Made by a program: the position numbers and the translations under genes | Shown: piece after piece, positions 18,268 through 49,207 of the stretch | How positions within the stretch are numbered: the first letter of the stretch is position 1 | Layout: each line of letters starts with the position of its first letter | The notes under the pieces: model-generated | What the model was told of the DNA's origin: nothing | Database searches by the model: none | What the model saw: only the letters and a program-made list of their open reading frames with translations | DNA from: an uncultured Gammaproteobacteria bacterium | Lineage (GTDB): Bacteria; Patescibacteriota; Microgenomatia; Daviesbacterales; UBA10151 | Assembly (NCBI GenBank): GCA_964504985.1 | Contig: CAZDFU010000003.1 | Coordinates: 822 to 64,821 of the forward strand | Length of the DNA stretch: 64,000 nt | Reading direction: 5' to 3'

Positions 18268-18349
18268 AAAATTTAATGTGGTTTTGTTGGCTTAAGGATT
18301 AAGTCAAATACCCTAGGTGTCAAGCTAGTCCACCTCCCAGGTGGGATTC
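18268..18349 (+). repeat. Short palindromic repeat family 1, copy A (tgtggttttg...ccctaggtgtcaagctagtccacctcccaggtgggatt)
   Basis: Shares an 80-bp similarity block with 19821-19910 and core with 33931-33998 and 47701-47768. Contains hairpin CCACCT-CCC-AGGTGG. Confidence 0.7.
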
Positions 18350-18352
18350 TTG

Positions 18353-19885
18353 TTACAGGCTGTTTAATTTGGTGGCCAGGGAATCTTGTTCTTCATTTAG
18401 CTTTTCATCCTGCTTAACCATTTGATTTTCTGCCTCAGTTAACCACACATTTGCCTCAAGTTTAGAAATAACAGCGGAGGCTATATTTATTCTTTGGGAA
18501 ATAATTTCGTTCATCCTATCAATATCTCTTTTATTTTTACTGTAAAAATCTGGATATTCTTTTAAATTTGCCCAATTAGGTTGAATACTTTTTAAGTCAC
18601 TTAATAATTTTTTCCAGGGGTTGATAGTTTCCTGGTCATAATTTGGTGGGACATAGCCTGCTAAATGTCCAACTACTATTTGGGCTGGGCAGCCATTCAG
18701 CTGCCCCTCAACTTCTGCAATACCTATATCCTGAAAATCCTGGTTTAATAGGAATTTTTTTGAGTCTGGGAATGAGAATTGATTTTCTATTAATTCCTCT
18801 GCTTCATAATAGCCTAAAGCAGATGTTTCCCCATAAGTAATATTGGAATACCCTGCATCTGAGAGGGCTTTTTTCATGGTATAACCACTTCTGGTGGCCT
18901 CAAAAGAGAGGTCATTATATTTAAGGCTTATTTTGCCTCTGCTGGCAGCTGATGTTTCAAGTCTGGTCTGATATCTTAAGGGACCGGCACCTGCTTCTCT
19001 TCTTTTTTGGTTTAATAATTCTAAATAACGGTTTTTATCCAGCTTAATTTTTGAGATTTCTTCAAGATCTTTGTCAGTTTTTCTCCAATTTTTATCTAGT
19101 GTGTCTTTTTGTTTTTTCAAAGGGATAACATGGTCTATATCTTTAAACTCTATCAGACCCAGTGTGTGCCTTGAATCCCCGCTTCCCTTTCTATTGTCCC
19201 CCATAACAAATAATTTTCCAGCAGGAACTGTCAGGCTTTTGCAGTCAGCTAAAAACTCTCCCCCAAAAGTAGACCTGGCTTTAAAAATATATGGTTCTTT
19301 TTGAGGCTTACCATTTAAAAGTAATACCCCGTCTTTTATTTCTAATGTATCTGCAGGCAGTGCAATAACTCTTTTAACAAAACCTCTTGGTTTATCCCCG
19401 TCTTTGGTAGTTATTTCTGCTGTTTTAAAATTATAAAAAGAGACTATATCCCCTCTTTCTATTTCATAAGAAAATAATTTATATCCAAATAAATTAAGAC
19501 CAGAAGGATACCTCATCATTCCAGTAGTGCCTACTATTTCCTTTGATTGTTCCTCTGGGGTTTTGCCTTCACCTTTGGGAAAAGTGGGATACATTGACCC
19601 AGTTCCTGACAGTGGGATATAATCTTCCACCAGGTTTAATTTGTCCAATACTAAAAAAGCAGTTAATTTATATGAACTAATCCAAACAGGTACCAAAATC
19701 AAGAGGGTTATTAGGGCAAGAAAGGGCAGAAGAAATCTTTTTACAATTAAATATCCAATTGTTACAAAACTAAAATATTTTTTCATGAACTTACTAATAA
19801 TATAATAATTTATTGTGGTTTTGATGGGTTTTGCTATCCTTAGTCCTAGGGATACAGAAATTTCCCTAGGTGTCAACCTGGGCAC
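18353..19885 (-). CDS. Signal peptidase I fused to C-terminal CAP/SCP (YkwD-like) domain
   Basis: N-terminal TM. SGSMYPTF (box B Ser), KRVIALPADTL (box D Lys), GDNRKGSGDSR (box E). C-terminal half LLNQKRREAGAGPL...YGETSALGYYEAEELIENQFSFPDSKKFLLNQDFQDIGIAEVEG resembles CAP/PR-1 domain. Confidence 0.6.
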   Translation of the reverse strand: MPRLTPREISVSLGLRIAKPIKTTINYYIISKFMKKYFSFVTIGYLIVKRFLLPFLALITLLILVPVWISSYKLTAFLVLDKLNLVEDYIPLSGTGSMYPTFPKGEGKTPEEQSKEIVGTTGMMRYPSGLNLFGYKLFSYEIERGDIVSFYNFKTAEITTKDGDKPRGFVKRVIALPADTLEIKDGVLLLNGKPQKEPYIFKARSTFGGEFLADCKSLTVPAGKLFVMGDNRKGSGDSRHTLGLIEFKDIDHVIPLKKQKDTLDKNWRKTDKDLEEISKIKLDKNRYLELLNQKRREAGAGPLRYQTRLETSAASRGKISLKYNDLSFEATRSGYTMKKALSDAGYSNITYGETSALGYYEAEELIENQFSFPDSKKFLLNQDFQDIGIAEVEGQLNGCPAQIVVGHLAGYVPPNYDQETINPWKKLLSDLKSIQPNWANLKEYPDFYSKNKRDIDRMNEIISQRINIASAVISKLEANVWLTEAENQMVKQDEKLNEEQDSLATKLNSL

Positions 19886-19910
19886 CTCCCAGGTGGGATT
19901 TACCGTTTAA
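19821..19910 (+). repeat. Short palindromic repeat family 1, copy B
   Basis: tgtggttttgatgg...gaaatttccctaggtgtcaacctgggcacctcccaggtgggattt. Overlaps the last codons of the 176-aa ORF. Confidence 0.7.
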
Positions 19911-23669: not shown

Positions 23670-24602
23670 ATGGCTAGTTTAGAAAGCCCTGATCTTTCAA
23701 TTATTATCCTAAATTATAATGTTAAGGAGCTATTATTAAAATGTTTGGAGTCTATTTTTAAAGACCCTAATTCTAAAAACTGGCAGGTTATTGTGGTGGA
23801 TAATGCTTCAGAGGATGGTTCTGCAGAAGCTGTTAAGAAAAAATATCTGAATTCCCAAATCCAAGTTGAAGTTGTGGAAAGCAAGGAAAATCTGGGCTTT
23901 GCAGGAGGTAATAATTTAGGAGTAAAATATGCCAAAGCTCAGGCTGTTTTATTTTTAAATCCAGATACTTTGGTTGTGGGAGATGCTGTCTCTAAATCTT
24001 TGGAGTTTTTGTTATCTAACCCAGATATAGGAGCCCTAACTTGCAGAGTGGAGCTGCCTGATGGGAAACTAGATTACTCCTGTCACAGAGGTTTCCCTAC
24101 TCCCTGGAATTCTTTTGCTTATTTTAGTGGTCTTTCTAGAGTTTTTCCCCGTTTCCGGCTGTTTTCAGGATACACTGCCTCTTATCAAAATATTAAAACC
24201 ATACATGAGATAGATTGTTTAACTGGAGCATATCTTATGGTTAGAAAAATTGCCGGTGATCAAATAAATTGGTGGGATGAAGATTATTTTTGGAATGGTG
24301 AAGATATTGAATTTTGTTACTCTTTAAAAGAAAAAGGTTGGAAAATATTTTTTTATCCAGAGGCAAAAATTATTCATTATAAAGGTTCATCCTCTGGTCT
24401 CTGGTCTTCTAAAGCAGTTTCTGTTGAGAAAGAGAAAATGTTTACCAGCGCTTCTCATGCAGCTTCAGCCATGAGGATTTTTTATATGAAGCATTACTTT
24501 AAAAAATACCCGGTAGTTTTAAGGGAATTTATTTTATGGGGAATTAAATCTTTGGAACACTTCAGAAAGTTTAAAATCAGAGTGGGGTTAAGGTATAAGT
24601 GA
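23670..24602 (+). CDS. Family 2 glycosyltransferase
   Basis: IIILNYNVKELLLKCLESI...VVDNASEDGS; DxD region; GT-A fold. Confidence 0.8.
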   Translation: MASLESPDLSIIILNYNVKELLLKCLESIFKDPNSKNWQVIVVDNASEDGSAEAVKKKYLNSQIQVEVVESKENLGFAGGNNLGVKYAKAQAVLFLNPDTLVVGDAVSKSLEFLLSNPDIGALTCRVELPDGKLDYSCHRGFPTPWNSFAYFSGLSRVFPRFRLFSGYTASYQNIKTIHEIDCLTGAYLMVRKIAGDQINWWDEDYFWNGEDIEFCYSLKEKGWKIFFYPEAKIIHYKGSSSGLWSSKAVSVEKEKMFTSASHAASAMRIFYMKHYFKKYPVVLREFILWGIKSLEHFRKFKIRVGLRYK

Positions 24603-24603
24603 C

Positions 24604-25491
24604 ATGGATTTATCAATAATAATACTAAGCTATAATACAAAAGATATTACCGGTCAATGTTTACTGAAGTTAAAGAGTGCTGTAGACAGTTTACAAAAGA
24701 AAACAGGCAATAATGCAGAGGTCATTGTTTTGGATAATGCTTCATCAGACGGATCTGTTGAAATGATTAAAACCAATTACCCCTGGGTTCAGCTAATTGA
24801 ATCAAAAGAAAATACAGGGTTTTCCAGGGGCAATAATTTAGCATTTAAAAAAACCAGATACCCCAATATTTTATTTTTAAACTCTGATGTTTATGTTGGC
24901 GAGGATACATTAATTAAAAGTTTGGAATATTTTAAAAATCATGGTTGTAATGTCTTGGGAGTTAGGCTTGTTTTTGAAAATGGAAAATTCCAACCCTCGG
25001 CCGGAAATTTACCAACACCAATTAATACTATTTTTTGGATATTAGGATTTGGACAACTGTTTAACCCATTTCATCCTAAAAGTGAGAATTTTTTTTCCCA
25101 GGAAAGAGAAGTAGGTTGGATTATGGGAGCATTTTTTATGATTAAAAGAGAAACTTTTATCAGTGCTGGTGGATTTGATGAGAATATTTTTATGTATATG
25201 GATGAGATTGATCTTTGCAAAAGGGTTTCAGATCTGGGTTTTAAGATCTGCTATGCCCCAGTTACTGAGGCAGTCCATCTGCACAGGGCCAGCAGCAAGG
25301 ATAATCCTGAGAAAGCCTTTACATTGGAGCTTAAGGGTATGAAGGTTTATCTTAAAAAATATCATGGATCCTGGTATCAGGTAATTAAATTATTTTTGAT
25401 CCTTGGGTTGGTTTTAAGAGTGATTGCTTTTTCCTTGTTTGGAAGAACAGCTAGAGCTAGGGCTTATATTGAAGGACTAAAAGAAGTATGA
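24604..25491 (+). CDS. Family 2 glycosyltransferase
   Basis: SIIILSYNTKD...VLDNASSDGS; overlapping start with upstream GT. Confidence 0.8.
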   Translation: MDLSIIILSYNTKDITGQCLLKLKSAVDSLQKKTGNNAEVIVLDNASSDGSVEMIKTNYPWVQLIESKENTGFSRGNNLAFKKTRYPNILFLNSDVYVGEDTLIKSLEYFKNHGCNVLGVRLVFENGKFQPSAGNLPTPINTIFWILGFGQLFNPFHPKSENFFSQEREVGWIMGAFFMIKRETFISAGGFDENIFMYMDEIDLCKRVSDLGFKICYAPVTEAVHLHRASSKDNPEKAFTLELKGMKVYLKKYHGSWYQVIKLFLILGLVLRVIAFSLFGRTARARAYIEGLKEV

Positions 25492-27269
25492 AAATTGCAA
25501 TTATTACACTTAATTACAATGGTAAAGAAGATACTTTGGAGTTACTAAATTCTTTAAAAAAACTAAGATCTAAAATCTATGATCTTAAAACTATAGTAGT
25601 GGATAATGCTTCAGAAGATGGAAGCGTGGGCGCTATTCACAAGGCTTTCCCTGAAGTAGATATTCTCCAGACAGGAGAAAATTTAGGCTTTGGACAGGGA
25701 TATAATAAAGGTTTTGAATATGCCAAAATCTGGGGGCCTGACTATTACTTGCTGATAAACAATGACTCAAAAATAGAAGACCCTAAACTTTTAGATAAGT
25801 TGCTGCAGGTATTTAAAAAAGATCCAAAAATTGGGATGGTTGCTCCTAAGATTTTATTTGAAAAGGGGTTTGAGTTTCATAAAGACAGGTACTCAAGTGA
25901 TGATTTAGGAAAAGTTATATGGTATGGGGGTGGTTTTATGGATTGGAATAATATACGCTCAGTTCACAGGGGCATAGATGAAGTTGATAGGGGTCAGTAT
26001 TCAGAAGTGGAAGAAGTGGGTTTTATCAGTGGTGCCTGTTTTTTAATTAAAAAAGAAGTTTTAGAAAAAGTTGGTGGATTCAGTGGAGATTATTTTCTAT
26101 ATTTTGAGGATGCCCAATTTTGTAAAAAAGTTTTAGAAGCAGGATATAAGTTATATTACTGCGGGCAAACTGTAATCAACCATAAAGTATCCCGTTCCAC
26201 AGGCATTGGTTCCAGCTTAACTGATTATTACCATACCAGGAATAGGCTTATTTTTGGCATGAAATATGGAAGGTTTAGGGCAAAGTTTGCCCTGGTTAGA
26301 GAAGCTATCAAGTTGTTGCTTATTGGCAGGCCTGCCCAAAGAAAAGGATTACTGGATTTTTATCTGGGAATAAGAGGAAAAGGAGAAGAGTCCCCAGGTG
26401 TCCCAACCGTGTATCCGTTAAAACTGTCCATTGGAATTGTTAATTATAAAACAGCCCAATTAACAAAAAAACTACTGGAAAGTATCTTTAAAAAAGATTC
26501 AGGATTTGATTCCAAAACAATGGAAGTTATAGTTTTGGACAATGGGTCAGAAGATAATTGTAAAGAAGCTATAAAAGAATTTTTGCCCAGGATAAAATAT
26601 CTGGAAAATAAAGAAAATGAAGGGTTTAGCAGAGGTTATAATAAAACCATAAACTTCTCTTTGGGTAAACATTATTTAATGTTTAACTCTGATATTGAAG
26701 TATTACCAGGCAGCTTATCTGAAATCCTTAAGGCAGCAGAGCATTTTGAGGGAAAGGCAGTTTTATCTGGGAAACTATTTTTTCCAGATAAAACAGATCA
26801 GGATTCTGTCTATCACTTGCCTACCCTTTCTGGCGCTTTTGATGAATATTTCTTAGGTAAGAATGGATCTTATTTTATGTACCTGCCTCGCCATAAGGCG
26901 GGTCAGCCAAAGTCTGAAGAATATACAAAAGTAGAAGGAGCAGTAATGGCTTGTTTTTTGATACCAAAATATATTTTAAATAAAGTAGGGCTTTTGGATG
27001 AGCAGACTTTTATTTATTTTGAGGATATAGAATATTGCAGGCGTTTAAAAAAGTTTGGATTCCCTGTTTATTTTGTACCTTCTGCCCATTTTATTCATCA
27101 CCATGGTGCTTCATCTAAAACTATAGGAGTTGATAAATCCCAGGCTCTTTTACAAAAAGCAGCCAGGCATTACCATGGAGGTTTTTATTATTTTCTCCTC
27201 TCCTGGGTATTGAGGTTAGGCCAGAAATTTGGCAGGGTTCAAACCCCTGTATCAAGGTGGACTAAATAA
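25488..27269 (+). CDS. Tandem double family 2 glycosyltransferase (two GT-A domains, 593 aa)
   Basis: N-terminal IAIITLNYNGKEDT...VVDNASEDGS and second LSIGIVNYKTAQ...VLDNGSEDN with downstream DxD-like motifs. Confidence 0.75.
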   Translation: MKIAIITLNYNGKEDTLELLNSLKKLRSKIYDLKTIVVDNASEDGSVGAIHKAFPEVDILQTGENLGFGQGYNKGFEYAKIWGPDYYLLINNDSKIEDPKLLDKLLQVFKKDPKIGMVAPKILFEKGFEFHKDRYSSDDLGKVIWYGGGFMDWNNIRSVHRGIDEVDRGQYSEVEEVGFISGACFLIKKEVLEKVGGFSGDYFLYFEDAQFCKKVLEAGYKLYYCGQTVINHKVSRSTGIGSSLTDYYHTRNRLIFGMKYGRFRAKFALVREAIKLLLIGRPAQRKGLLDFYLGIRGKGEESPGVPTVYPLKLSIGIVNYKTAQLTKKLLESIFKKDSGFDSKTMEVIVLDNGSEDNCKEAIKEFLPRIKYLENKENEGFSRGYNKTINFSLGKHYLMFNSDIEVLPGSLSEILKAAEHFEGKAVLSGKLFFPDKTDQDSVYHLPTLSGAFDEYFLGKNGSYFMYLPRHKAGQPKSEEYTKVEGAVMACFLIPKYILNKVGLLDEQTFIYFEDIEYCRRLKKFGFPVYFVPSAHFIHHHGASSKTIGVDKSQALLQKAARHYHGGFYYFLLSWVLRLGQKFGRVQTPVSRWTK

Positions 27270-27822: not shown

Positions 27823-29012
27823 TTAAAATATTTAAAATTACCAGGACTGGGGTTGTGGCTTTTTTGGCAGCCTTAATTTTGAGTTTTATCTTTGTTTCTT
27901 TAACTTATGCACATGAAGGTGAAGACCATGAAGAAGAAAACCCTGAACAGGCGGCTAAAAAATATAATCTAACTTTTCCTATAACAGAACTTGGGGGATG
28001 TCAAAATTATGCAGCCTGCAGGTCTTATTGTGAGTCTGAGGCTAATAGGGATCAGTGTACTTCCTATGCCAAGAAAAAGGGATTCTACCAGGAGAGAAGA
28101 AAAGAAGAAGGAATAATTAATGAAGCTAAATCCCAGTTAGGTTGTGATTCAGAATCCTCCTGCAGGGCTGTTTGTGAGAAAGAAGAAAATATTGAAAAGT
28201 GTTCTGCATTTGCCCAAAAGCATAATTTAGGGGGGCCCAGAGGAAAGCCGGGTGATAGGAATATATTACAAAAAGCCAAAGAAATTTTGGGATGTGATTC
28301 AGAGCAGTCTTGCAGGTCAGTTTGTGAGAATCCTGCCAACCAGGACAAATGTTCTACTTTTGCTGCTCAAACTGGTTTAGGTGGAGGGGTTAGAAGGGTT
28401 GGGCCTGGAGGGTGTAATTCTGAAGAAAGCTGCAGGAGTTTTTGTGAGAAAAATATTGATGAATGCAGAAAGTTTGGAGGAGGGCCCCCTGAGGGGTATG
28501 ATAGTGGCAGAAAAGGTCCTGGCGGGTGTAATTCTGAGGAGTCTTGTAATGCTTATTGTCAGTCTAATCCAGAAGAGTGTGCAAAATTAGGAGGAGGTAC
28601 TGGAAATTTTGGAGGAGGAAGAAGGGGTCCTGGAGGGTGTGATAGTGAGGAATCTTGTAGAAGATATTGTGAGGCAAATCCTAAAGAATGTGGTATTGGT
28701 GAAAGAGGTGTTAGAGATCAAAGAGAGGGTTTTGAAAGAGAAGGAAGAAGGGATTTTAGACCTGAGAATAATCAGAGACCAACAGAAAATTATCAAAGAG
28801 AAGAATTTAGGTCTTCCCAGGAGTACCAAAGACCAGTTGAGGATCAGTACCAGCAGCCTCAAACATATGAACTCCCCAGACAAGACACTCAGCCTGCTGA
28901 ATCTTTTCAAAGGGAATCATCATCAGATACTTTCACTAATACAACCCAAGAAGTTAGAGGGGCTTCAACAGGAAGAAATCTATTCCAACAAATCTTAGAT
29001 TTCTTGTTTTAG
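27819..29012 (+). CDS. Secreted/anchored protein with six tandem ~45-aa four-cysteine repeats and Q/E/R-rich tail
   Basis: N-terminal hydrophobic segment. Repeats G-C-[DN]-S-E-x-S-C-R-x-x-C-E-x(5,6)-C-x-x-[FY] occurring six times. Confidence 0.6.
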   Translation: MIKIFKITRTGVVAFLAALILSFIFVSLTYAHEGEDHEEENPEQAAKKYNLTFPITELGGCQNYAACRSYCESEANRDQCTSYAKKKGFYQERRKEEGIINEAKSQLGCDSESSCRAVCEKEENIEKCSAFAQKHNLGGPRGKPGDRNILQKAKEILGCDSEQSCRSVCENPANQDKCSTFAAQTGLGGGVRRVGPGGCNSEESCRSFCEKNIDECRKFGGGPPEGYDSGRKGPGGCNSEESCNAYCQSNPEECAKLGGGTGNFGGGRRGPGGCDSEESCRRYCEANPKECGIGERGVRDQREGFEREGRRDFRPENNQRPTENYQREEFRSSQEYQRPVEDQYQQPQTYELPRQDTQPAESFQRESSSDTFTNTTQEVRGASTGRNLFQQILDFLF

Positions 29013-33589: not shown

Positions 33590-34010
33590 CGATTATTGAG
33601 GCATCTGTCCGGAGGGAAGGATTCCCTTCGACTACGCTCAGGGTAAACTGCTCATCCCTCTGATAATATTCGTCTCGTACGCTCGCATTGAGCGAGCTTG
33701 CGAGCCGAAATGTCCGGAGGGAAGGATTCGCACCTTCGCAGGGAAAACCCGGTAGATTTACAGTCTACTGCAATTGACTACTCTGCCACCTCCGGTATGC
33801 CTTATTATATCTTAGGCAAATTGATTGGACAACTTTTAAAATATACTTCTGCGGACTGTAAGTCCTTGAAGATCCCGGTTGTAACCGGGGATCCGCGATA
33901 AACTTTGTTCATCGGGACTGTAATTAAATTAAAATTTCCCTAGGTGCCTGCTCGCCTCGCTCGACGCGAGTCGAAGCGGGCCTAATCCACCCCCCAGGTG
34001 AACAAAGATA
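33590..34010. ncRNA. Candidate structured non-coding RNA region (unassigned family)
   Basis: ~870-bp gene-free interval. Locally GC-rich in an AT-rich genome. Direct repeat of tgtccggagggaaggattc at 33605 and 33709. Perfect hairpin gctcgc-attga-gcgagc. Contains repeat family 1 variant at its 3' end. Confidence 0.35.
33931..33998 (+). repeat. Short palindromic repeat family 1, copy C (variant with 34-nt GC-rich insertion)
   Basis: aaatttccctaggtg...ccaccccccaggtg. Confidence 0.5.
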
Positions 34011-43652: not shown

Positions 43653-43862
43653 TTAAGGCTTAGGTTCCTGTTTTTCAAATACTTCTAGCTTTCCCACATG
43701 GAATGCGGGAGCCTTAAGTTGTTGTGGCGCATCAATTCTATCAGGCAATTCCCGCCTGACAAATTCAGGACTTATTGGATGCCCAAGCTCGCGTGCTCTG
43801 TTGCTCATATCAGAACCAATATATATAAGTCTTTCTGTCATTTTTACCTCCTTTCTTTGCAT
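43653..43862 (-). CDS. Hypothetical small protein (69 aa); C-terminus encoded by repeat family 2 copy
   Basis: ORF; last 14 codons lie in repeat 43686-43719. Confidence 0.3.
   Translation of the reverse strand: MQRKEVKMTERLIYIGSDMSNRARELGHPISPEFVRRELPDRIDAPQQLKAPAFHVGKLEVFEKQEPKP
43686..43719 (+). repeat. Short palindromic repeat family 2, copy A (tagctttcccacatggaatgcgggagccttaagt)
   Basis: Near-identical to 44243-44276; hairpin cccacat-gga-atgtggg. Confidence 0.7.
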
Positions 43863-44242: not shown

Positions 44243-44276
44243 TAGCTTTCCCACATGGAATGTGGGAGCCTCAAGT
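44243..44276 (+). repeat. Short palindromic repeat family 2, copy B
   Basis: tagctttcccacatggaatgtgggagcctcaagt; abuts tRNA-Val. Confidence 0.7.
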
Positions 44277-47130: not shown

Positions 47131-47889
47131 TCAGCCAAATTTTTTAATTGTGTTGTTGTGGGTTTTGTTTTCCAACTCATCATCAAGCGGGGCAAGATTA
47201 ATTTCTTTTCCATATTTTACCTCTAAAGCTTTTTTCAAAAGCCAGTCAGCTAACTTTGGATTTTTAGGTAAAAGTGAACCATGCATATAAGCCCCAATGG
47301 CATTTTTATAAATACAACCTTCTGTTTGATCTTCACCATTATTACCAAAGCCTTTAGACACCAGTCCTAAAGGAGTTGCCCCCTTTTTAAGAAAAGTTTT
47401 ACCTGAATGATTTTCAAAACCAACTAACTTGCCAAACATTGTATCAATAACAATATTCCCAATCATTCTTTGATCAGAAGCTAAGGTATAGGCTGGGAAA
47501 AGTCCAACTCCTTTAAGTCTGGGGCCTTTATGAGGTTGATAATATTCTCCCAATAGTTGATAGCCTCCACAAATAGAAAGCAGAGGTATCCCCCTTTCTA
47601 CTTCTTTTTTAATAAACTTTCCTTTACCAGAAGTTATTAAATCTTTAGCTACCAGCTCTTGTTGTTGATCCTGCCCTCCCCCAAAAAAATATAGGTCTGC
47701 TTTTTGTCCACCTGGGAGGTGTCTACCTAGTCCACCTGGGAGGTGGACTGCGTTGGTACCTAGGGAAATATTAATAATTTTTACTTTAATTCCCCTCCAC
47801 TGGGCACGTTTTTTTAAGGTAATAATATTGCCTGTGTCTCCATAAATATTCATCAAATCACCATATAAATAACCCACAACAATTTTCAA
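47131..47889 (-). CDS. gatD: Lipid II isoglutaminyl synthase glutaminase subunit GatD (CobQ-like GATase); carries an in-frame repeat-element insertion
   Basis: Collinear with S. aureus GatD (IYGDTGNIITLKKRAQWRGIKV..., ICGGYQLLG catalytic Cys, GFENHSG). 13 extra residues HLPGGLGRHLPGG encoded by repeat family 1 copy. Confidence 0.8.
   Translation of the reverse strand: MKIVVGYLYGDLMNIYGDTGNIITLKKRAQWRGIKVKIINISLGTNAVHLPGGLGRHLPGGQKADLYFFGGGQDQQQELVAKDLITSGKGKFIKKEVERGIPLLSICGGYQLLGEYYQPHKGPRLKGVGLFPAYTLASDQRMIGNIVIDTMFGKLVGFENHSGKTFLKKGATPLGLVSKGFGNNGEDQTEGCIYKNAIGAYMHGSLLPKNPKLADWLLKKALEVKYGKEINLAPLDDELENKTHNNTIKKFG
47701..47768 (-). repeat. Short palindromic repeat family 1, copy D (inverted orientation, inside gatD CDS, hairpin arm duplicated)
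   Basis: Minus-strand reads aatatttccctaggtaccaacgcagtccacctcccaggtggactaggtagacacctcccaggtggac. Confidence 0.7.
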
Positions 47890-47893
47890 TTTA

Positions 47894-49207
47894 TTACTCC
47901 TCCTCCCAATAATTTTTTTTAATGTCTGATTTTACCAGTATTCTTTGTAGATCAAGCATGGCTGTATAAGTAGGCAGGATAAATAGCTGCCCTTTTAAGC
48001 CCTTTTGAGCCTCTTTAAGAGCCTTTTTCAGGTTCTCTTCTACCTTTATCTGGTTAATATTAAATCCTGCATATTTGAGCCTGACAGCCATATCATATGC
48101 CCTGGTGCCGGAACAAACAATTTTCAATTCTCCTCTACCGCGGGTTTTCTGATCTTTCACAGAATAGTCTGCGTCTATTTTTAATTTTTCAAACTCCCCA
48201 TCCCAGATCCAGGATACATCTGTTCCATCTGCCAAATTATCATTTAGGGCGAAAAGCAACCTGTCTGCTGGTTTAATCTGCGGGGCAATTGTTTCAAAAA
48301 CCTGGGTAGCACCTGCTGGGTTTTTGATTAGGAAAATATACCCGAAAGGTAATTTTTCTACCCTGCCAAAAGCTGGCTGGTAATTTAAAAGAGAAGAAAT
48401 AATTTTGGCTGCAGAAATGTTTAGGTTAGAGGCACATGCTATGGCAGCTGTAGCATCATATATATGGTAAATACCTGGAATGGGTAGGTTAACAGATAAT
48501 AGTTTATTATTAGTAGGCAGTAGAAAAGAGCTTCCTAAAAGTCCTTTTGTTTTGACTTTTTTTGCTTCAAAATCAGGTTTATACCTTCTTTTTTTCCCTA
48601 TACCCTCCCCTGCTATTTTAGAACCCTCTACCCCAAAAGTTTTAACACGTCCTTTAAAGGCCTCTTTTAGTTTTAAAGTATTGGCATCATCACCATTTAC
48701 CAAAATTATTGTTTCAGGAGAAAGTTTTTTTAATGTCTCACACCACCTTTTAACAATAGTATCTACCTCCCCATACCTGTCCAACTGGTCTCTGAAAATA
48801 TTTAAAAATACCACCATAGCAGGATTCAGTTTAGGAGCAACAGAGTTAAAAGCAGCCTCATCCAACTCCCATATCCCCAGATCATAGTTAAAATTCCCAT
48901 TTGAAATGCGGGAGGCTGAAATTAGGGTTGAGGCTATGCCTCTTTCCAAATTTGAGCCTGTATGGTTTCTGATTACCTTAAGGTTTGATGTTTTGGCAAT
49001 ATGGGCCAGCATTCTGGCTGTGGTGGTTTTACCATTTGTACCAGTGATAATAATATTTTTAGGGATATTAAGACTAAGTTTTTGAACAAGAGAAGGGTCT
49101 ATTTTAAGAGCATATAAACCAGGGGCTGCAGAGCCGCCACTCAACTTTAATTTTCTAACAAAAGAACGGATTAGTTTACCGGCTAAAACTGCAGTGAATG
49201 TTCTCAT
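47894..49207 (-). CDS. murT: Lipid II isoglutaminyl synthase MurT (Mur ligase family + DUF1727)
   Basis: ITGTNGKTTT P-loop, Mur ligase middle domain, adjacent to gatD with 4-nt gap. Confidence 0.8.
   Translation of the reverse strand: MRTFTAVLAGKLIRSFVRKLKLSGGSAAPGLYALKIDPSLVQKLSLNIPKNIIITGTNGKTTTARMLAHIAKTSNLKVIRNHTGSNLERGIASTLISASRISNGNFNYDLGIWELDEAAFNSVAPKLNPAMVVFLNIFRDQLDRYGEVDTIVKRWCETLKKLSPETIILVNGDDANTLKLKEAFKGRVKTFGVEGSKIAGEGIGKKRRYKPDFEAKKVKTKGLLGSSFLLPTNNKLLSVNLPIPGIYHIYDATAAIACASNLNISAAKIISSLLNYQPAFGRVEKLPFGYIFLIKNPAGATQVFETIAPQIKPADRLLFALNDNLADGTDVSWIWDGEFEKLKIDADYSVKDQKTRGRGELKIVCSGTRAYDMAVRLKYAGFNINQIKVEENLKKALKEAQKGLKGQLFILPTYTAMLDLQRILVKSDIKKNYWEEE

What the first reader, a model, noticed from the sequence alone, without database searches (positions are those of the whole stretch)
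18268..19910. Repeat family 1 (ccctaggtg...cacctcccaggtggg) as ~80-bp direct repeats bracketing a single gene; four copies in window
Copies lie at 18268-18349, 19821-19910, 33931-33998 (with a 34-nt GC-rich insertion) and 47701-47768 (inverted, intragenic).

The core contains AGGTG...CACCT...AGGTG. The CACCT can pair with either flanking AGGTG, giving alternative hairpins.

Two copies directly bracket the SPase-CAP gene, and one contributes the last codons of the 176-aa ORF. A related motif (agtccacctg) also appears in the mazEF-flanking repeats.
Basis: seen in the sequence. Interest (0 to 1): 0.55.

Follow-up and report, generated by a model that had tools for sequence, protein, structure and literature searches.

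The report
REP repeats of a Microgenomates transposase
The four repeats are copies of a short hairpin-forming DNA element that, in related ultra-small (CPR) bacteria, always flanks a domesticated tyrosine transposase gene (a REP/RAYT system), and that sits both between genes and, in frame, inside genes.

Summary
The window has exactly four copies of a ~35-nt unit, CCCTAGGTG - 11-12-nt loop - CCACCT CCC AGGTGG. They are c1 at 18311-18344 (+), c2 at 19864-19896 (+), c3 at 33938-34001 (+, with a GC-rich hairpin nested in the loop) and c4 at 47732-47765 (-). c4 lies in frame inside gatD and carries a 24-nt tandem duplication.

The family is dispersed, not local. The same unit occurs at non-homologous sites in 41 loci from Daviesbacteria, Levybacteria, Gottesmanbacteria, Chisholmbacteria and other Patescibacteria.

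Six of those loci place it directly beside a ~222-aa Y1/HUH gene (Pfam Y1_Tnp). The predicted fold of that protein best matches E. coli REP-associated tyrosine transposase (PDB 4ER8). Four further loci, fetched by homology to that protein alone, all carry the unit about 25 nt upstream and 0-22 nt downstream of the gene, in inverted orientation.

The repeats are therefore REP-type elements of a REPtron-like system. The window holds orphan copies and no RAYT gene.

In-frame copies occur in at least eight other genes with recognisable families. Orthologous gatD sites are filled, decayed or empty.

This is a new member of a known kind, in an unreported lineage. The alternative-hairpin RNA switch and the mazEF link are not supported.

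The parts
18306..18349 (+). REP copy c1 (core 18311-18344: CCCTAGGTG TCAAGCTAGT CCACCT CCC AGGTGG). It lies between the convergent atpD (end 18176) and signal-peptidase (stop 18353) genes.
   Evidence: Sequence. Covariance-model hit of 56.4 bits, E=3e-15. The 3' hairpin plus T-rich tail is flagged terminator-like on the + strand. The ssDNA fold gives two hairpins.
19859..19901 (+). REP copy c2 (core 19864-19896). It lies between the start of the signal-peptidase gene (ATG at 19786, - strand) and the stop of the 176-aa ORF (19900-19902).
   Evidence: Sequence. Model hit of 40 bits, E=2e-10. ORF positions.
33933..34006 (+). REP copy c3: box 1 at 33938-33946 and a degenerate 3' hairpin CCACCCCCCAGGTGA at 33987-34001. 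A ~31-nt GC-rich hairpin is nested in the loop. The copy lies between tRNA-Tyr (-, 33712-33795) and the PBP1 gene (+, 34175).
   Evidence: Sequence. Model hits on the two halves. The fold shows the nested hairpin, -14.8 kcal/mol, z=-3.2. The insert is unique in all DNA held.
47727..47770 (-). REP copy c4 (core 47732-47765), in frame and in sense inside gatD. It encodes SLGTNAVHLPGG.
   Evidence: Sequence. Model hit of 46.9 bits, E=2e-12. Translation. Orthologues are filled or empty at the same site.
47698..47731 (-). In-frame 24-nt tandem duplication of the 3' half of c4. It adds a second CACCTCCCAGGTGG at 47708-47721 and encodes LGRHLPGG.
   Evidence: The same kind of tail duplication occurs in about 10 of 79 copies elsewhere, and independently in gatD of L059.
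18270..18290 (+). 21-nt block AATTTAATGTGGTTTTGTTGG shared only with c2's upstream flank. It is not part of the family unit.
19807..19827 (+). Second copy of the 21-nt block (AATTTATTGTGGTTTTGATGG), upstream of c2.
47131..47889 (-). gatD (lipid II isoglutaminyl synthase glutaminase subunit, GATase_3), the host gene of c4. It is 252 aa here against 240 aa in orthologues without an insert.
18353..19786 (-). Signal peptidase I (S26) gene bracketed by c1 and c2.
   Evidence: Relatives at 45-52% identity have neither the flanking repeats nor the same neighbours.

Best explanation
The four repeats are REP-type elements: short, non-autonomous, hairpin-forming DNA repeats. They belong to a REP/RAYT (REPtron-like) system that is widespread in Microgenomates, a group of CPR/Patescibacteria.

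**Anatomy of the unit.** Each unit has a 5' box CCCTAGGTG and a variable 11-12-nt loop segment that can pair with the box and tolerates nested insertions. It ends in a 3' hairpin, CCACCT-NNN-AGGTGG.

**The partner gene.** In related genomes a single ~222-aa HUH/Y1 gene (HUH motif NHFH, tyrosine motif YIHLNP, RAYT-like fold) is flanked by two such units.

**Likely mechanism (inferred from the IS200/IS605 and E. coli TnpA-REP paradigm, not shown here).**
1. The enzyme recognises the folded single-stranded hairpin during replication.
2. It nicks and rejoins the DNA.
3. At a low rate this seeds new copies.
4. Copies survive where they do no harm: between genes, especially at 3' ends and between convergent genes, and in frame in tolerant protein loops.

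**The window.** It carries orphan copies only, with no RAYT gene in these 64 kb.

**Possible secondary uses.** c1 may serve as the terminator hairpin after the atp operon. The unit upstream of each RAYT gene supplies a TTGACA -35 box.
For: **Dispersed, not homologous by position**
- An exact-pattern scan of one genome per species found 41 loci with unrelated flanks, in Daviesbacteria, Levybacteria, Gottesmanbacteria, Chisholmbacteria and other Patescibacteria.
- A looser scan found 79 copies in 496 kb of held DNA.

**Association with the transposase**
- In L014, L041, L036 and L002 two copies bracket a ~222-aa ORF. L007 and L019 show the same gene next to a copy at a contig end.
- All of these proteins hit Pfam Y1_Tnp above its cutoff. 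Their only NCBIfam hit is 'REP-associated tyrosine transposase', at 45-47 bits against a cutoff of 80.
- HUH and Y..NP are invariant in 26 homologues.
- The AlphaFold model has pLDDT 84.6. Its best PDB match is 4ER8, RAYT bound to a REP hairpin, with E=4e-6 and target-normalised TM 0.70. IS608 and ISDra2 TnpA follow at E of about 1e-3.

**Independent test**
- Four loci chosen only by protein homology (L046-L049) all have a copy 22-25 nt upstream in reverse orientation. All four also have a copy overlapping the stop codon or up to 22 nt downstream, in forward orientation.
- Overall, 8 of 8 upstream sites and 10 of 10 downstream sites are occupied.

**Behaviour typical of REPs**
- Most copies are intergenic, many of them between convergent genes.
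- Variants are genome-specific. L046 and L047 use CCACCCCCC. L042 uses CCCACCCTCCAGGTGGG at two separate loci.
- The gatD site is filled in the window, L042, L045 and L059, and empty in L044.
- In-frame copies lie inside Wzy_C, NifU_N, glycosyltransferase, RibD_C and NTP-transferase genes and pheT.

**Structure**
- The 3' hairpin is paired in 96% of cells, and its closing pair covaries: CG, UA, AU and GC all occur.
- L045 shows a three-way compensatory change: GGGTG / CACCC / GGGTG.
Against: - No RAYT gene lies in the window, and the rest of this genome could not be read. The association is therefore shown in relatives only.
- The canonical REP hallmark, an unpaired 5' GT[AG]G at the foot of one hairpin, is not clearly present. 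A GTGG exists, but inside the 3' stem.
- Window copies are singletons, not the inverted doublets (REPINs) seen in Pseudomonas and E. coli.
- Copy number looks modest: about 1 per 16 kb here, and at most 5 exact-pattern hits in any one genome.
- The unit is nearly identical across class-level divergence, whereas classical REPs tend to be species-specific. That could mean host-level selection rather than transposase specificity.
- Cleavage and mobility are wholly inferred.
Confidence: 0.85

Rival explanations
1. Host-selected structural signal. The units exist mainly as bidirectional transcription terminators or mRNA-stabilising hairpins, and the transposase association is secondary.
For: - c1 sits between convergent genes, and its 3' hairpin plus T-rich tail is called terminator-like.
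- Many copies elsewhere lie between convergent genes, or 19-22 nt after tRNA genes in sense orientation (L021, L029).
- The flanks are A-rich upstream and often GATTT downstream.
- The sequence is conserved across a whole class.
Against: - A terminator needs structure, not a fixed 22-nt sequence. Ordinary terminators are not sequence families.
- Sense copies sit inside intact essential genes (gatD, NifU-like, RibD_C, glycosyltransferase), where termination would be lethal.
- Folding energies are modest, -6 to -8.5 kcal/mol, with z-scores from 0 to -3.5.
- This reading does not explain the fixed placement on both sides of a Y1 gene.
Confidence: 0.08
2. RNA switch. The unit is a cis-regulatory RNA in which CACCT pairs alternately with the upstream or downstream AGGTG. 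These boxes also mimic the Shine-Dalgarno and anti-Shine-Dalgarno sequences.
For: - Both pairings are possible in 95-96% of copies.
- CACCTCC equals the 3' end of 16S rRNA, and GGAGGTG on the other strand is a strong SD. This rests on sequence reading and general knowledge.
Against: - There is no consistent gene class, distance or orientation. Between co-directional genes roughly 7 copies are sense and 13 antisense.
- Copies lie inside genes on both strands.
- The box 1 / box 2 helix shows no covariation at all.
- No Rfam family matches, even at E up to 10.
Confidence: 0.02
3. Local event. c1 and c2 are the ends of a mobile or recombined cassette that carries the signal-peptidase gene, or simply a local duplication.
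For: - c1 and c2 are direct repeats.
- They share an extra 21-nt block found nowhere else.
- The signal-peptidase gene has different neighbours in relatives.
Against: - The unit itself is a dispersed family.
- The relatives compared are only 45-52% identical, so lost synteny says little.
- No recombinase is nearby.
- The likeliest reading is a ~90-nt segment containing a REP that was duplicated once. That is compatible with the main explanation.
Confidence: 0.05

Closest known systems
REP / RAYT systems (REPtrons) of Proteobacteria: E. coli TnpA-REP (PDB 4ER8) and Pseudomonas REPINs
   Same: - The repeat is short and palindromic, multi-copy and mostly extragenic.
- A Y1/HUH gene is flanked by its own repeats.
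- The protein fold best matches 4ER8.
- Repeat variants are genome-specific.
- Two divergent Y1 genes in one locus each have their own flanking repeat (L048).
- The Y1 gene sits at a conserved locus next to uvrB in three Daviesbacteria loci, which suggests vertical inheritance.
   Different: - No clear unpaired 5' GTAG tag.
- The unit has three boxes (AGGTG / CACCT / AGGTG) with two possible hairpins.
- Copies are mostly singletons rather than inverted doublets.
- Copy number is low.
- The unit is almost identical across several candidate phyla or orders.
- Host genomes are about 1 Mb, whereas RAYT carriers are reported to have larger-than-average genomes (PMC6006769).
TIRYT / TIRtron: subclass 2.1 of Quentin et al. 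2018 (PMC6006769), equal to Group 1 RAYTs of Bertels et al. 2017 (PMC5581495)
   Same: - The protein signature, NHFH with YIHLNP, fits the NH[YF]H / Y[IV]HLNP signature listed for subclass 2.1.
- Length is about 220-240 aa, with a helical C-terminal extension.
- The gene is flanked by an inverted pair of repeats.
- Flanking-repeat abundance is only moderate.
   Different: - Those studies found no REP-like hairpins next to subclass 2.1 genes.
- The reported terminal inverted repeats share GGGGWSAS, which is absent here.
- Subclass membership was read from motifs only, not tested by phylogeny.
Rickettsia palindromic elements (RPE) and intragenic REPs (Di Nocera et al. 2013, PMC3733652)
   Same: Palindromic repeats are inserted in frame in functional protein genes, adding 12-20 residues in loops. 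The same element also occurs between genes.
   Different: - RPE-1 is 100-150 bp.
- CGTC-type repeats have no known transposase.
- Here the element is about 35 nt and has a cognate Y1 enzyme.

Membership tests
REP/RAYT (REPtron) | Short (20-40 nt) imperfect palindromic repeat unit | tested here: met
   The core is 34-35 nt. The 3' hairpin CCACCT-NNN-AGGTGG is paired in 96% of cells. The 5' box pairs with the loop in about half of cells.
REP/RAYT (REPtron) | Many copies at non-homologous, mostly extragenic sites | tested here: met
   There are 4 copies in the window, 41 loci in other species and 79 copies in 496 kb of held DNA. About 85% are outside ORFs.
REP/RAYT (REPtron) | Copies flank a RAYT (Y1/HUH) gene | tested here: met
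   Ten loci in relatives, four of them chosen by protein alone. The upstream site is occupied in 8 of 8 and the downstream site in 10 of 10. This is not seen in the window itself, which has no RAYT.
REP/RAYT (REPtron) | The enzyme has an HUH motif, a catalytic Tyr (Y..NP) and a RAYT fold | tested here: met
   NHFH and YIHLNP are invariant. Pfam Y1_Tnp is above its cutoff. The best fold match is 4ER8, E=4e-6. NCBIfam REP_Tyr_transpos is the only hit but falls below its cutoff.
REP/RAYT (REPtron) | Unpaired 5' GT[AG]G tetranucleotide at the foot of the hairpin | tested here: inconclusive
   On the reverse strand a GTGG lies just 5' of the loop/box-1 hairpin. It is also part of the 3' stem, and no GTAG is present.
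REP/RAYT (REPtron) | Repeats organised as inverted doublets (REPINs) | tested here: not met
   Window copies and most others are singletons. Inverted pairs are seen only around the RAYT gene.
REP/RAYT (REPtron) | RAYT is single-copy and vertically inherited | tested here: inconclusive
   The gene is syntenic next to uvrB in L046, L047 and L049. Copy number per genome cannot be read from fragments.
REP/RAYT (REPtron) | The enzyme binds and cleaves the repeat as single-stranded DNA | not testable with these tools
   This needs biochemistry.
TIRYT / RAYT subclass 2.1 | Motif signature NH[YF]H and Y[IV]HLNP; flanking inverted repeats with GGGGWSAS | tested here: inconclusive
   The protein motifs fit (against Table 1 of PMC6006769). 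GGGGWSAS is absent from the repeat. No phylogeny was run.
Rickettsia palindromic elements | In-frame insertion in protein genes; 100-150-bp element; no transposase | tested here: not met
   In-frame insertion is met. Size and the lack of a cognate enzyme are not.
Intrinsic terminator | GC-rich hairpin followed by a T run, downstream of a gene in sense orientation | tested here: inconclusive
   c1 passes the scan. c2, c3 and c4 do not fit the context.
Known RNA families (Rfam) | Match to a curated covariance model | tested here: not met
   Only tRNAs reach gathering score. Nothing relevant appears at E up to 10.

The most novel reading that the evidence does not exclude
This may be the first cognate hairpin repeat found for the largest and least understood RAYT group (Group 1, subclass 2.1, 'TIRYT'), for which earlier surveys found no REPs. 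It is kept, nearly sequence-identical, across a whole class of about 1-Mb CPR genomes. In that reading it is a long-lived, vertically inherited repeat-and-enzyme partnership that the host uses: a REP-borne promoter for the enzyme, terminators, and tolerated protein-loop inserts. Its three-box unit and recurrent tail duplications would point to a cleavage and rejoining geometry different from E. coli TnpA-REP.
Probability: 0.3. Interest if true: 0.6.

Novelty: new member of a known kind. Interest (0 to 1): 0.42.

Why it matters
- **Lineage.** It extends REP/RAYT systems to the Candidate Phyla Radiation. I found no report of them there: three full-text searches combining CPR, Patescibacteria or Microgenomates with palindromic-element or RAYT terms returned nothing relevant. 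These genomes are far smaller than those where such systems were thought to concentrate.
- **Annotation.** It gives an immediate rule for Microgenomates genomes. The ~222-aa 'transposase' or 'hypothetical' genes are RAYT-like. Odd 12-20-residue inserts such as SLGVKLxHLPGG or SLGV..SPPRW in otherwise conserved proteins are REP-encoded.
- **Biochemistry.** If the enzyme does belong to RAYT Group 1, the unit is a concrete DNA substrate for testing a group whose target has been unknown.
- **Scale.** For the window itself the finding is ordinary selfish or domesticated repeat DNA, not a new regulatory RNA.

Tried and rejected
- **Rfam.** Gathering thresholds on the whole window and E up to 10 around c1 gave only tRNAs and noise.
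- **Window's own contig.** Looking it up by exact protein found nothing on record, so the rest of the genome, and its RAYT if any, could not be read.
- **PDB by sequence.** A single RAYT sequence gave no hit. The 7-sequence profile gave only weak ISDra2 hits at E=0.02. The fold search was needed.
- **Signal-peptidase relatives from metagenomes.** They are too distant (45-52% identity), with no repeats and no shared neighbours, so the cassette idea stays open.
- **Covariation on 60 copies.** This was nearly uninformative, because copies were found by a sequence pattern and the boxes are close to invariant.
- **Viral contigs.** There were no matches, so no sign of phage carriage.
- **Ideas considered and dropped.**
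  - DNA uptake sequence: the density is about 10-fold too low, and it does not explain the Y1 association.
  - Transcription-factor operator: the spacer tolerates 30-40-nt insertions.
  - attC, dif and CRISPR remnants: the architecture does not fit.
- **c3 GC-rich insert and the 21-nt c1/c2 block.** Both are unique in all DNA held.
Full report
**1. The observation**

The shared unit is CCCTAGGTG, then an 11-12-nt variable segment, then CCACCT CCC AGGTGG. The upstream flank is A/T-rich and the downstream flank is often GATTT.

The 14-mer core, allowing up to 2 mismatches, occurs 6 times against 0.19 expected. None of 100 shuffles reaches that count.

I built a covariance model from 60 copies taken from other genomes and ran it over the whole window with filters off. 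It recovers c1 (56 bits), c4 (47 bits) and c2 (40 bits). c3 comes back as two halves, and the duplicated 3' half of c4 also scores. Nothing else does. 'Four copies in window' is therefore exact.

The family unit is about 35-45 nt. The ~80-nt similarity applies only to c1 and c2. Those two share an extra 21-nt block that occurs nowhere else in the window or in any related locus.

**2. Context in the window**

- **c1** lies between the convergent atpD and signal-peptidase genes.
- **c2** lies between the signal-peptidase start (the likely ATG at 19786) and the stop of a 176-aa ORF that has no family hit. The REP core ends 3 nt short of that TAA.
- **c3** lies between a tRNA-Tyr gene and the PBP1 gene. 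Its loop holds a nested GC-rich hairpin.
- **c4** is in sense and in frame inside gatD.

The window comes from a Daviesbacteria-like Microgenomates genome, judged by its nearest gatD homologues.

**3. A dispersed family**

I scanned one genome per species with the pattern CCCTAGGTN{6,36}CACCTCCCAGGTGG. This gave 41 loci, against a few expected by chance. They are almost all from Daviesbacteria, Levybacteria, Gottesmanbacteria, Chisholmbacteria and 'Patescibacteria group' assemblies.

Some third-party assemblies are titled 'Gammaproteobacteria'. These have 35-45% GC, and four of them (L007, L016, L019, L036) show 57-82% protein identity to Daviesbacteria loci. Those titles look wrong.

The flanks of the 41 loci are unrelated to one another.

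**4. The decisive association**

Several loci had two copies 600-1000 nt apart, so I translated what lay between them.

- In L014, L041, L036 and L002 the bracketed ORFs are homologous ~222-aa proteins. L007 and L019 have the same gene next to a copy at a contig end.
- The four complete, bracketed proteins hit Pfam Y1_Tnp (the IS200-like transposase family) above its cutoff. For the two checked against NCBIfam (L014, L002), the only hit is 'REP-associated tyrosine transposase', below that model's cutoff.
- The HUH motif (NHFH) and the tyrosine motif (YIHLNP) are invariant across 26 homologues.
- An AlphaFold model (pLDDT 84.6, pTM 0.83) has as its best PDB match 4ER8, 'REP associated tyrosine transposase bound to a REP hairpin'. 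That match has E=4e-6 and target-normalised TM 0.70. It is followed by IS608, ISDra2 and IS200 transposases.

As an independent test I took four homologues found by protein search alone and fetched their contigs. All four genes have a copy 22-25 nt upstream in reverse orientation. All four have a second copy overlapping the stop codon or up to 22 nt downstream, in forward orientation.

Over all ten loci the upstream position is occupied in 8 of 8 readable cases, always with the loop type TCAATAG. The downstream position is occupied in 10 of 10, forward in 8 and reverse in 2.

This is the REPtron architecture described for REP/RAYT systems (PMC6006769, PMC3733652, PMC5581495).

**5. Other REP-like behaviour**

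- **Location.** Most copies are intergenic, many between convergent genes or just after tRNA genes. Orientation relative to transcription is mixed.
- **Genome-specific variants.** L046 and L047 use CCACCCCCCAGGTGG. L042 uses CCCACCCTCCAGGTGGG both in gatD and in pheT.
- **A second pair.** In L048 a second, divergent Y1 gene is flanked by its own different hairpin repeat.
- **In-frame copies.** They lie inside genes for Wzy_C, NifU_N, a GT4 glycosyltransferase, RibD_C, an NTP-transferase and pheT. The Pfam domains span the inserts. Intragenic REPs and RPEs are known precedents (PMC3733652).
- **The gatD site across orthologues.**
  - It is empty in L044.
  - It is near-canonical, with a 15-nt tail duplication, in L059.
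  - It is decayed in L042.
  - In L045 it is changed at all three boxes in a compensatory way (GGGTG / CACCC / GGGTG).
  - In L043 it is occupied by a different hairpin.

**6. Structure**

Single-strand folding gives a 3' hairpin in all eight copies folded and, in three of them, a weaker 5' hairpin between box 1 and the loop. Energies are modest.

On 60 copies the 3' hairpin is paired in 96% of cells. Its closing pair covaries. The box 1 / box 2 helix is equally complementary but never varies. The 5' hairpin is paired in 53% of cells.

The unit is thus conserved as sequence. That fits recognition by a protein better than a purely structural RNA role. Which hairpin the enzyme reads, and whether the GTGG on the reverse strand is the counterpart of the canonical GT[AG]G tag, remain unresolved.

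**7. Mechanism**

*Shown here:* family membership, the association with the Y1 gene, the hairpin potential, the pattern of locations, and polymorphism at an orthologous site.

*Inferred from the IS200/IS605 and TnpA-REP paradigm:* the enzyme binds the folded single strand, nicks and rejoins it, and thereby spreads copies at a low rate. Copies persist where they are harmless.

*Possible secondary uses:*
- c1's hairpin with its T-rich tail is terminator-like after atpD.
- In the five REPtrons inspected for it (L014, L046-L049), the upstream unit provides TTGACA, then 17 nt, then an A/T-rich hexamer, then 6-9 nt, then the RAYT ATG.

**8. Comparison with what is known, and novelty**

The system works like, and meets most defining features of, REP/RAYT. 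It departs in these ways:
- it has no clear GTAG tag;
- its unit has three boxes;
- its copies are singletons rather than REPIN doublets;
- its copy number is low;
- its sequence is conserved at class level;
- its host genomes are very small.

The protein motifs fit subclass 2.1 (Group 1, 'TIRYT'). Earlier surveys found no REP-like hairpins for that group. I did not test this placement by phylogeny.

Full-text searches found no paper that links RAYT or palindromic elements with CPR, Patescibacteria or Microgenomates.

I file it as a new member of a known kind and score interest at 0.42. It is useful for annotation and for RAYT biology. It is not a new regulatory RNA and not a gene cassette.

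Noticed in passing
window 43686-43719, 44243-44276, 48889-48922; L043 10142; L048 14312-14338 and 15049-15075: There is a second hairpin repeat family, TAGCTTT-CCCACAT-GGA-ATGYGGG-AGCC. Two good direct copies lie 557 nt apart, one of them next to tRNA-Val. A degenerate third copy lies inside the murT ORF. The same stem forms the gatD insert of L043. In L048 a second Y1_Tnp gene is flanked on both sides by TAGCTTTACACCTTTAAGGTGTG, which shares the prefix. This is probably a second REP/RAYT pair.
   Followed up: partly
window 47698-47731; L021, L022, L026, L028, L039, L040, L041, L046, L049; L059 449-478: About 10 of 79 copies are followed at once by a tandem duplication (triplication in L028) of [CAGGTGG plus the next 4-16 nt]. 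Two independent in-frame cases occur in gatD: 24 nt in the window and 15 nt in L059. The cause is unknown. It could be hairpin-stimulated slippage or a trace of nicking and rejoining.
   Followed up: partly
L014 2943-3002; L046 134-190; L047 9943-10000; L048 9941-10000; L049 9943-10000: The unit upstream of each RAYT gene, read on the gene's strand, contains TTGACA, then 17 nt, then an A/T-rich hexamer, then 6-9 nt, then the ATG. This looks like a promoter carried by the repeat, giving a nearly leaderless mRNA.
   Followed up: no
L046, L047, L049: The RAYT-like gene sits next to uvrB, with uvrA, uvrC or lexA nearby, in three Daviesbacteria loci. The conserved position is among DNA-repair genes.
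   Followed up: no
window 33947-33985; L010 2746-2776; L012 2614-2639 and 4593-4613; L032 161-181: The loop of the unit accepts nested inserts. c3 holds a unique 31-nt GC-rich hairpin. Several Chisholmbacteria copies hold a shared insert, TCCCTCCAAAGGCGGGCAGGC, at the same position.
   Followed up: partly
L003-L009, L011, L013, L016, L017, L019, L022, L023, L028, L036: Third-party assemblies titled 'uncultured Gammaproteobacteria' or 'Pseudomonadales' have 35-45% GC. Four of them (L007, L016, L019, L036) show 57-82% protein identity to Daviesbacteria loci. The titles appear to be wrong.
   Followed up: partly
gatD homologues P0022, P0058, P0088, P0100, P0112, P0115 (alignment A2): gatD orthologues carry further lineage-specific inserts at other loop positions. 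Examples are GNPSTSLRTGS, PARNASASVAGG and a 20-residue insert in P0088. The Ser/Arg/Ala-rich composition suggests other translated repeat elements.
   Followed up: no
window 23785-26584 and 28137-28690: There are four tandem paralogous glycosyltransferase-like genes spaced about 900 nt apart. There is also a gene with 110-150-nt internal repeats that encode Cys-rich modules. Both are unrelated to the finding.
   Followed up: no
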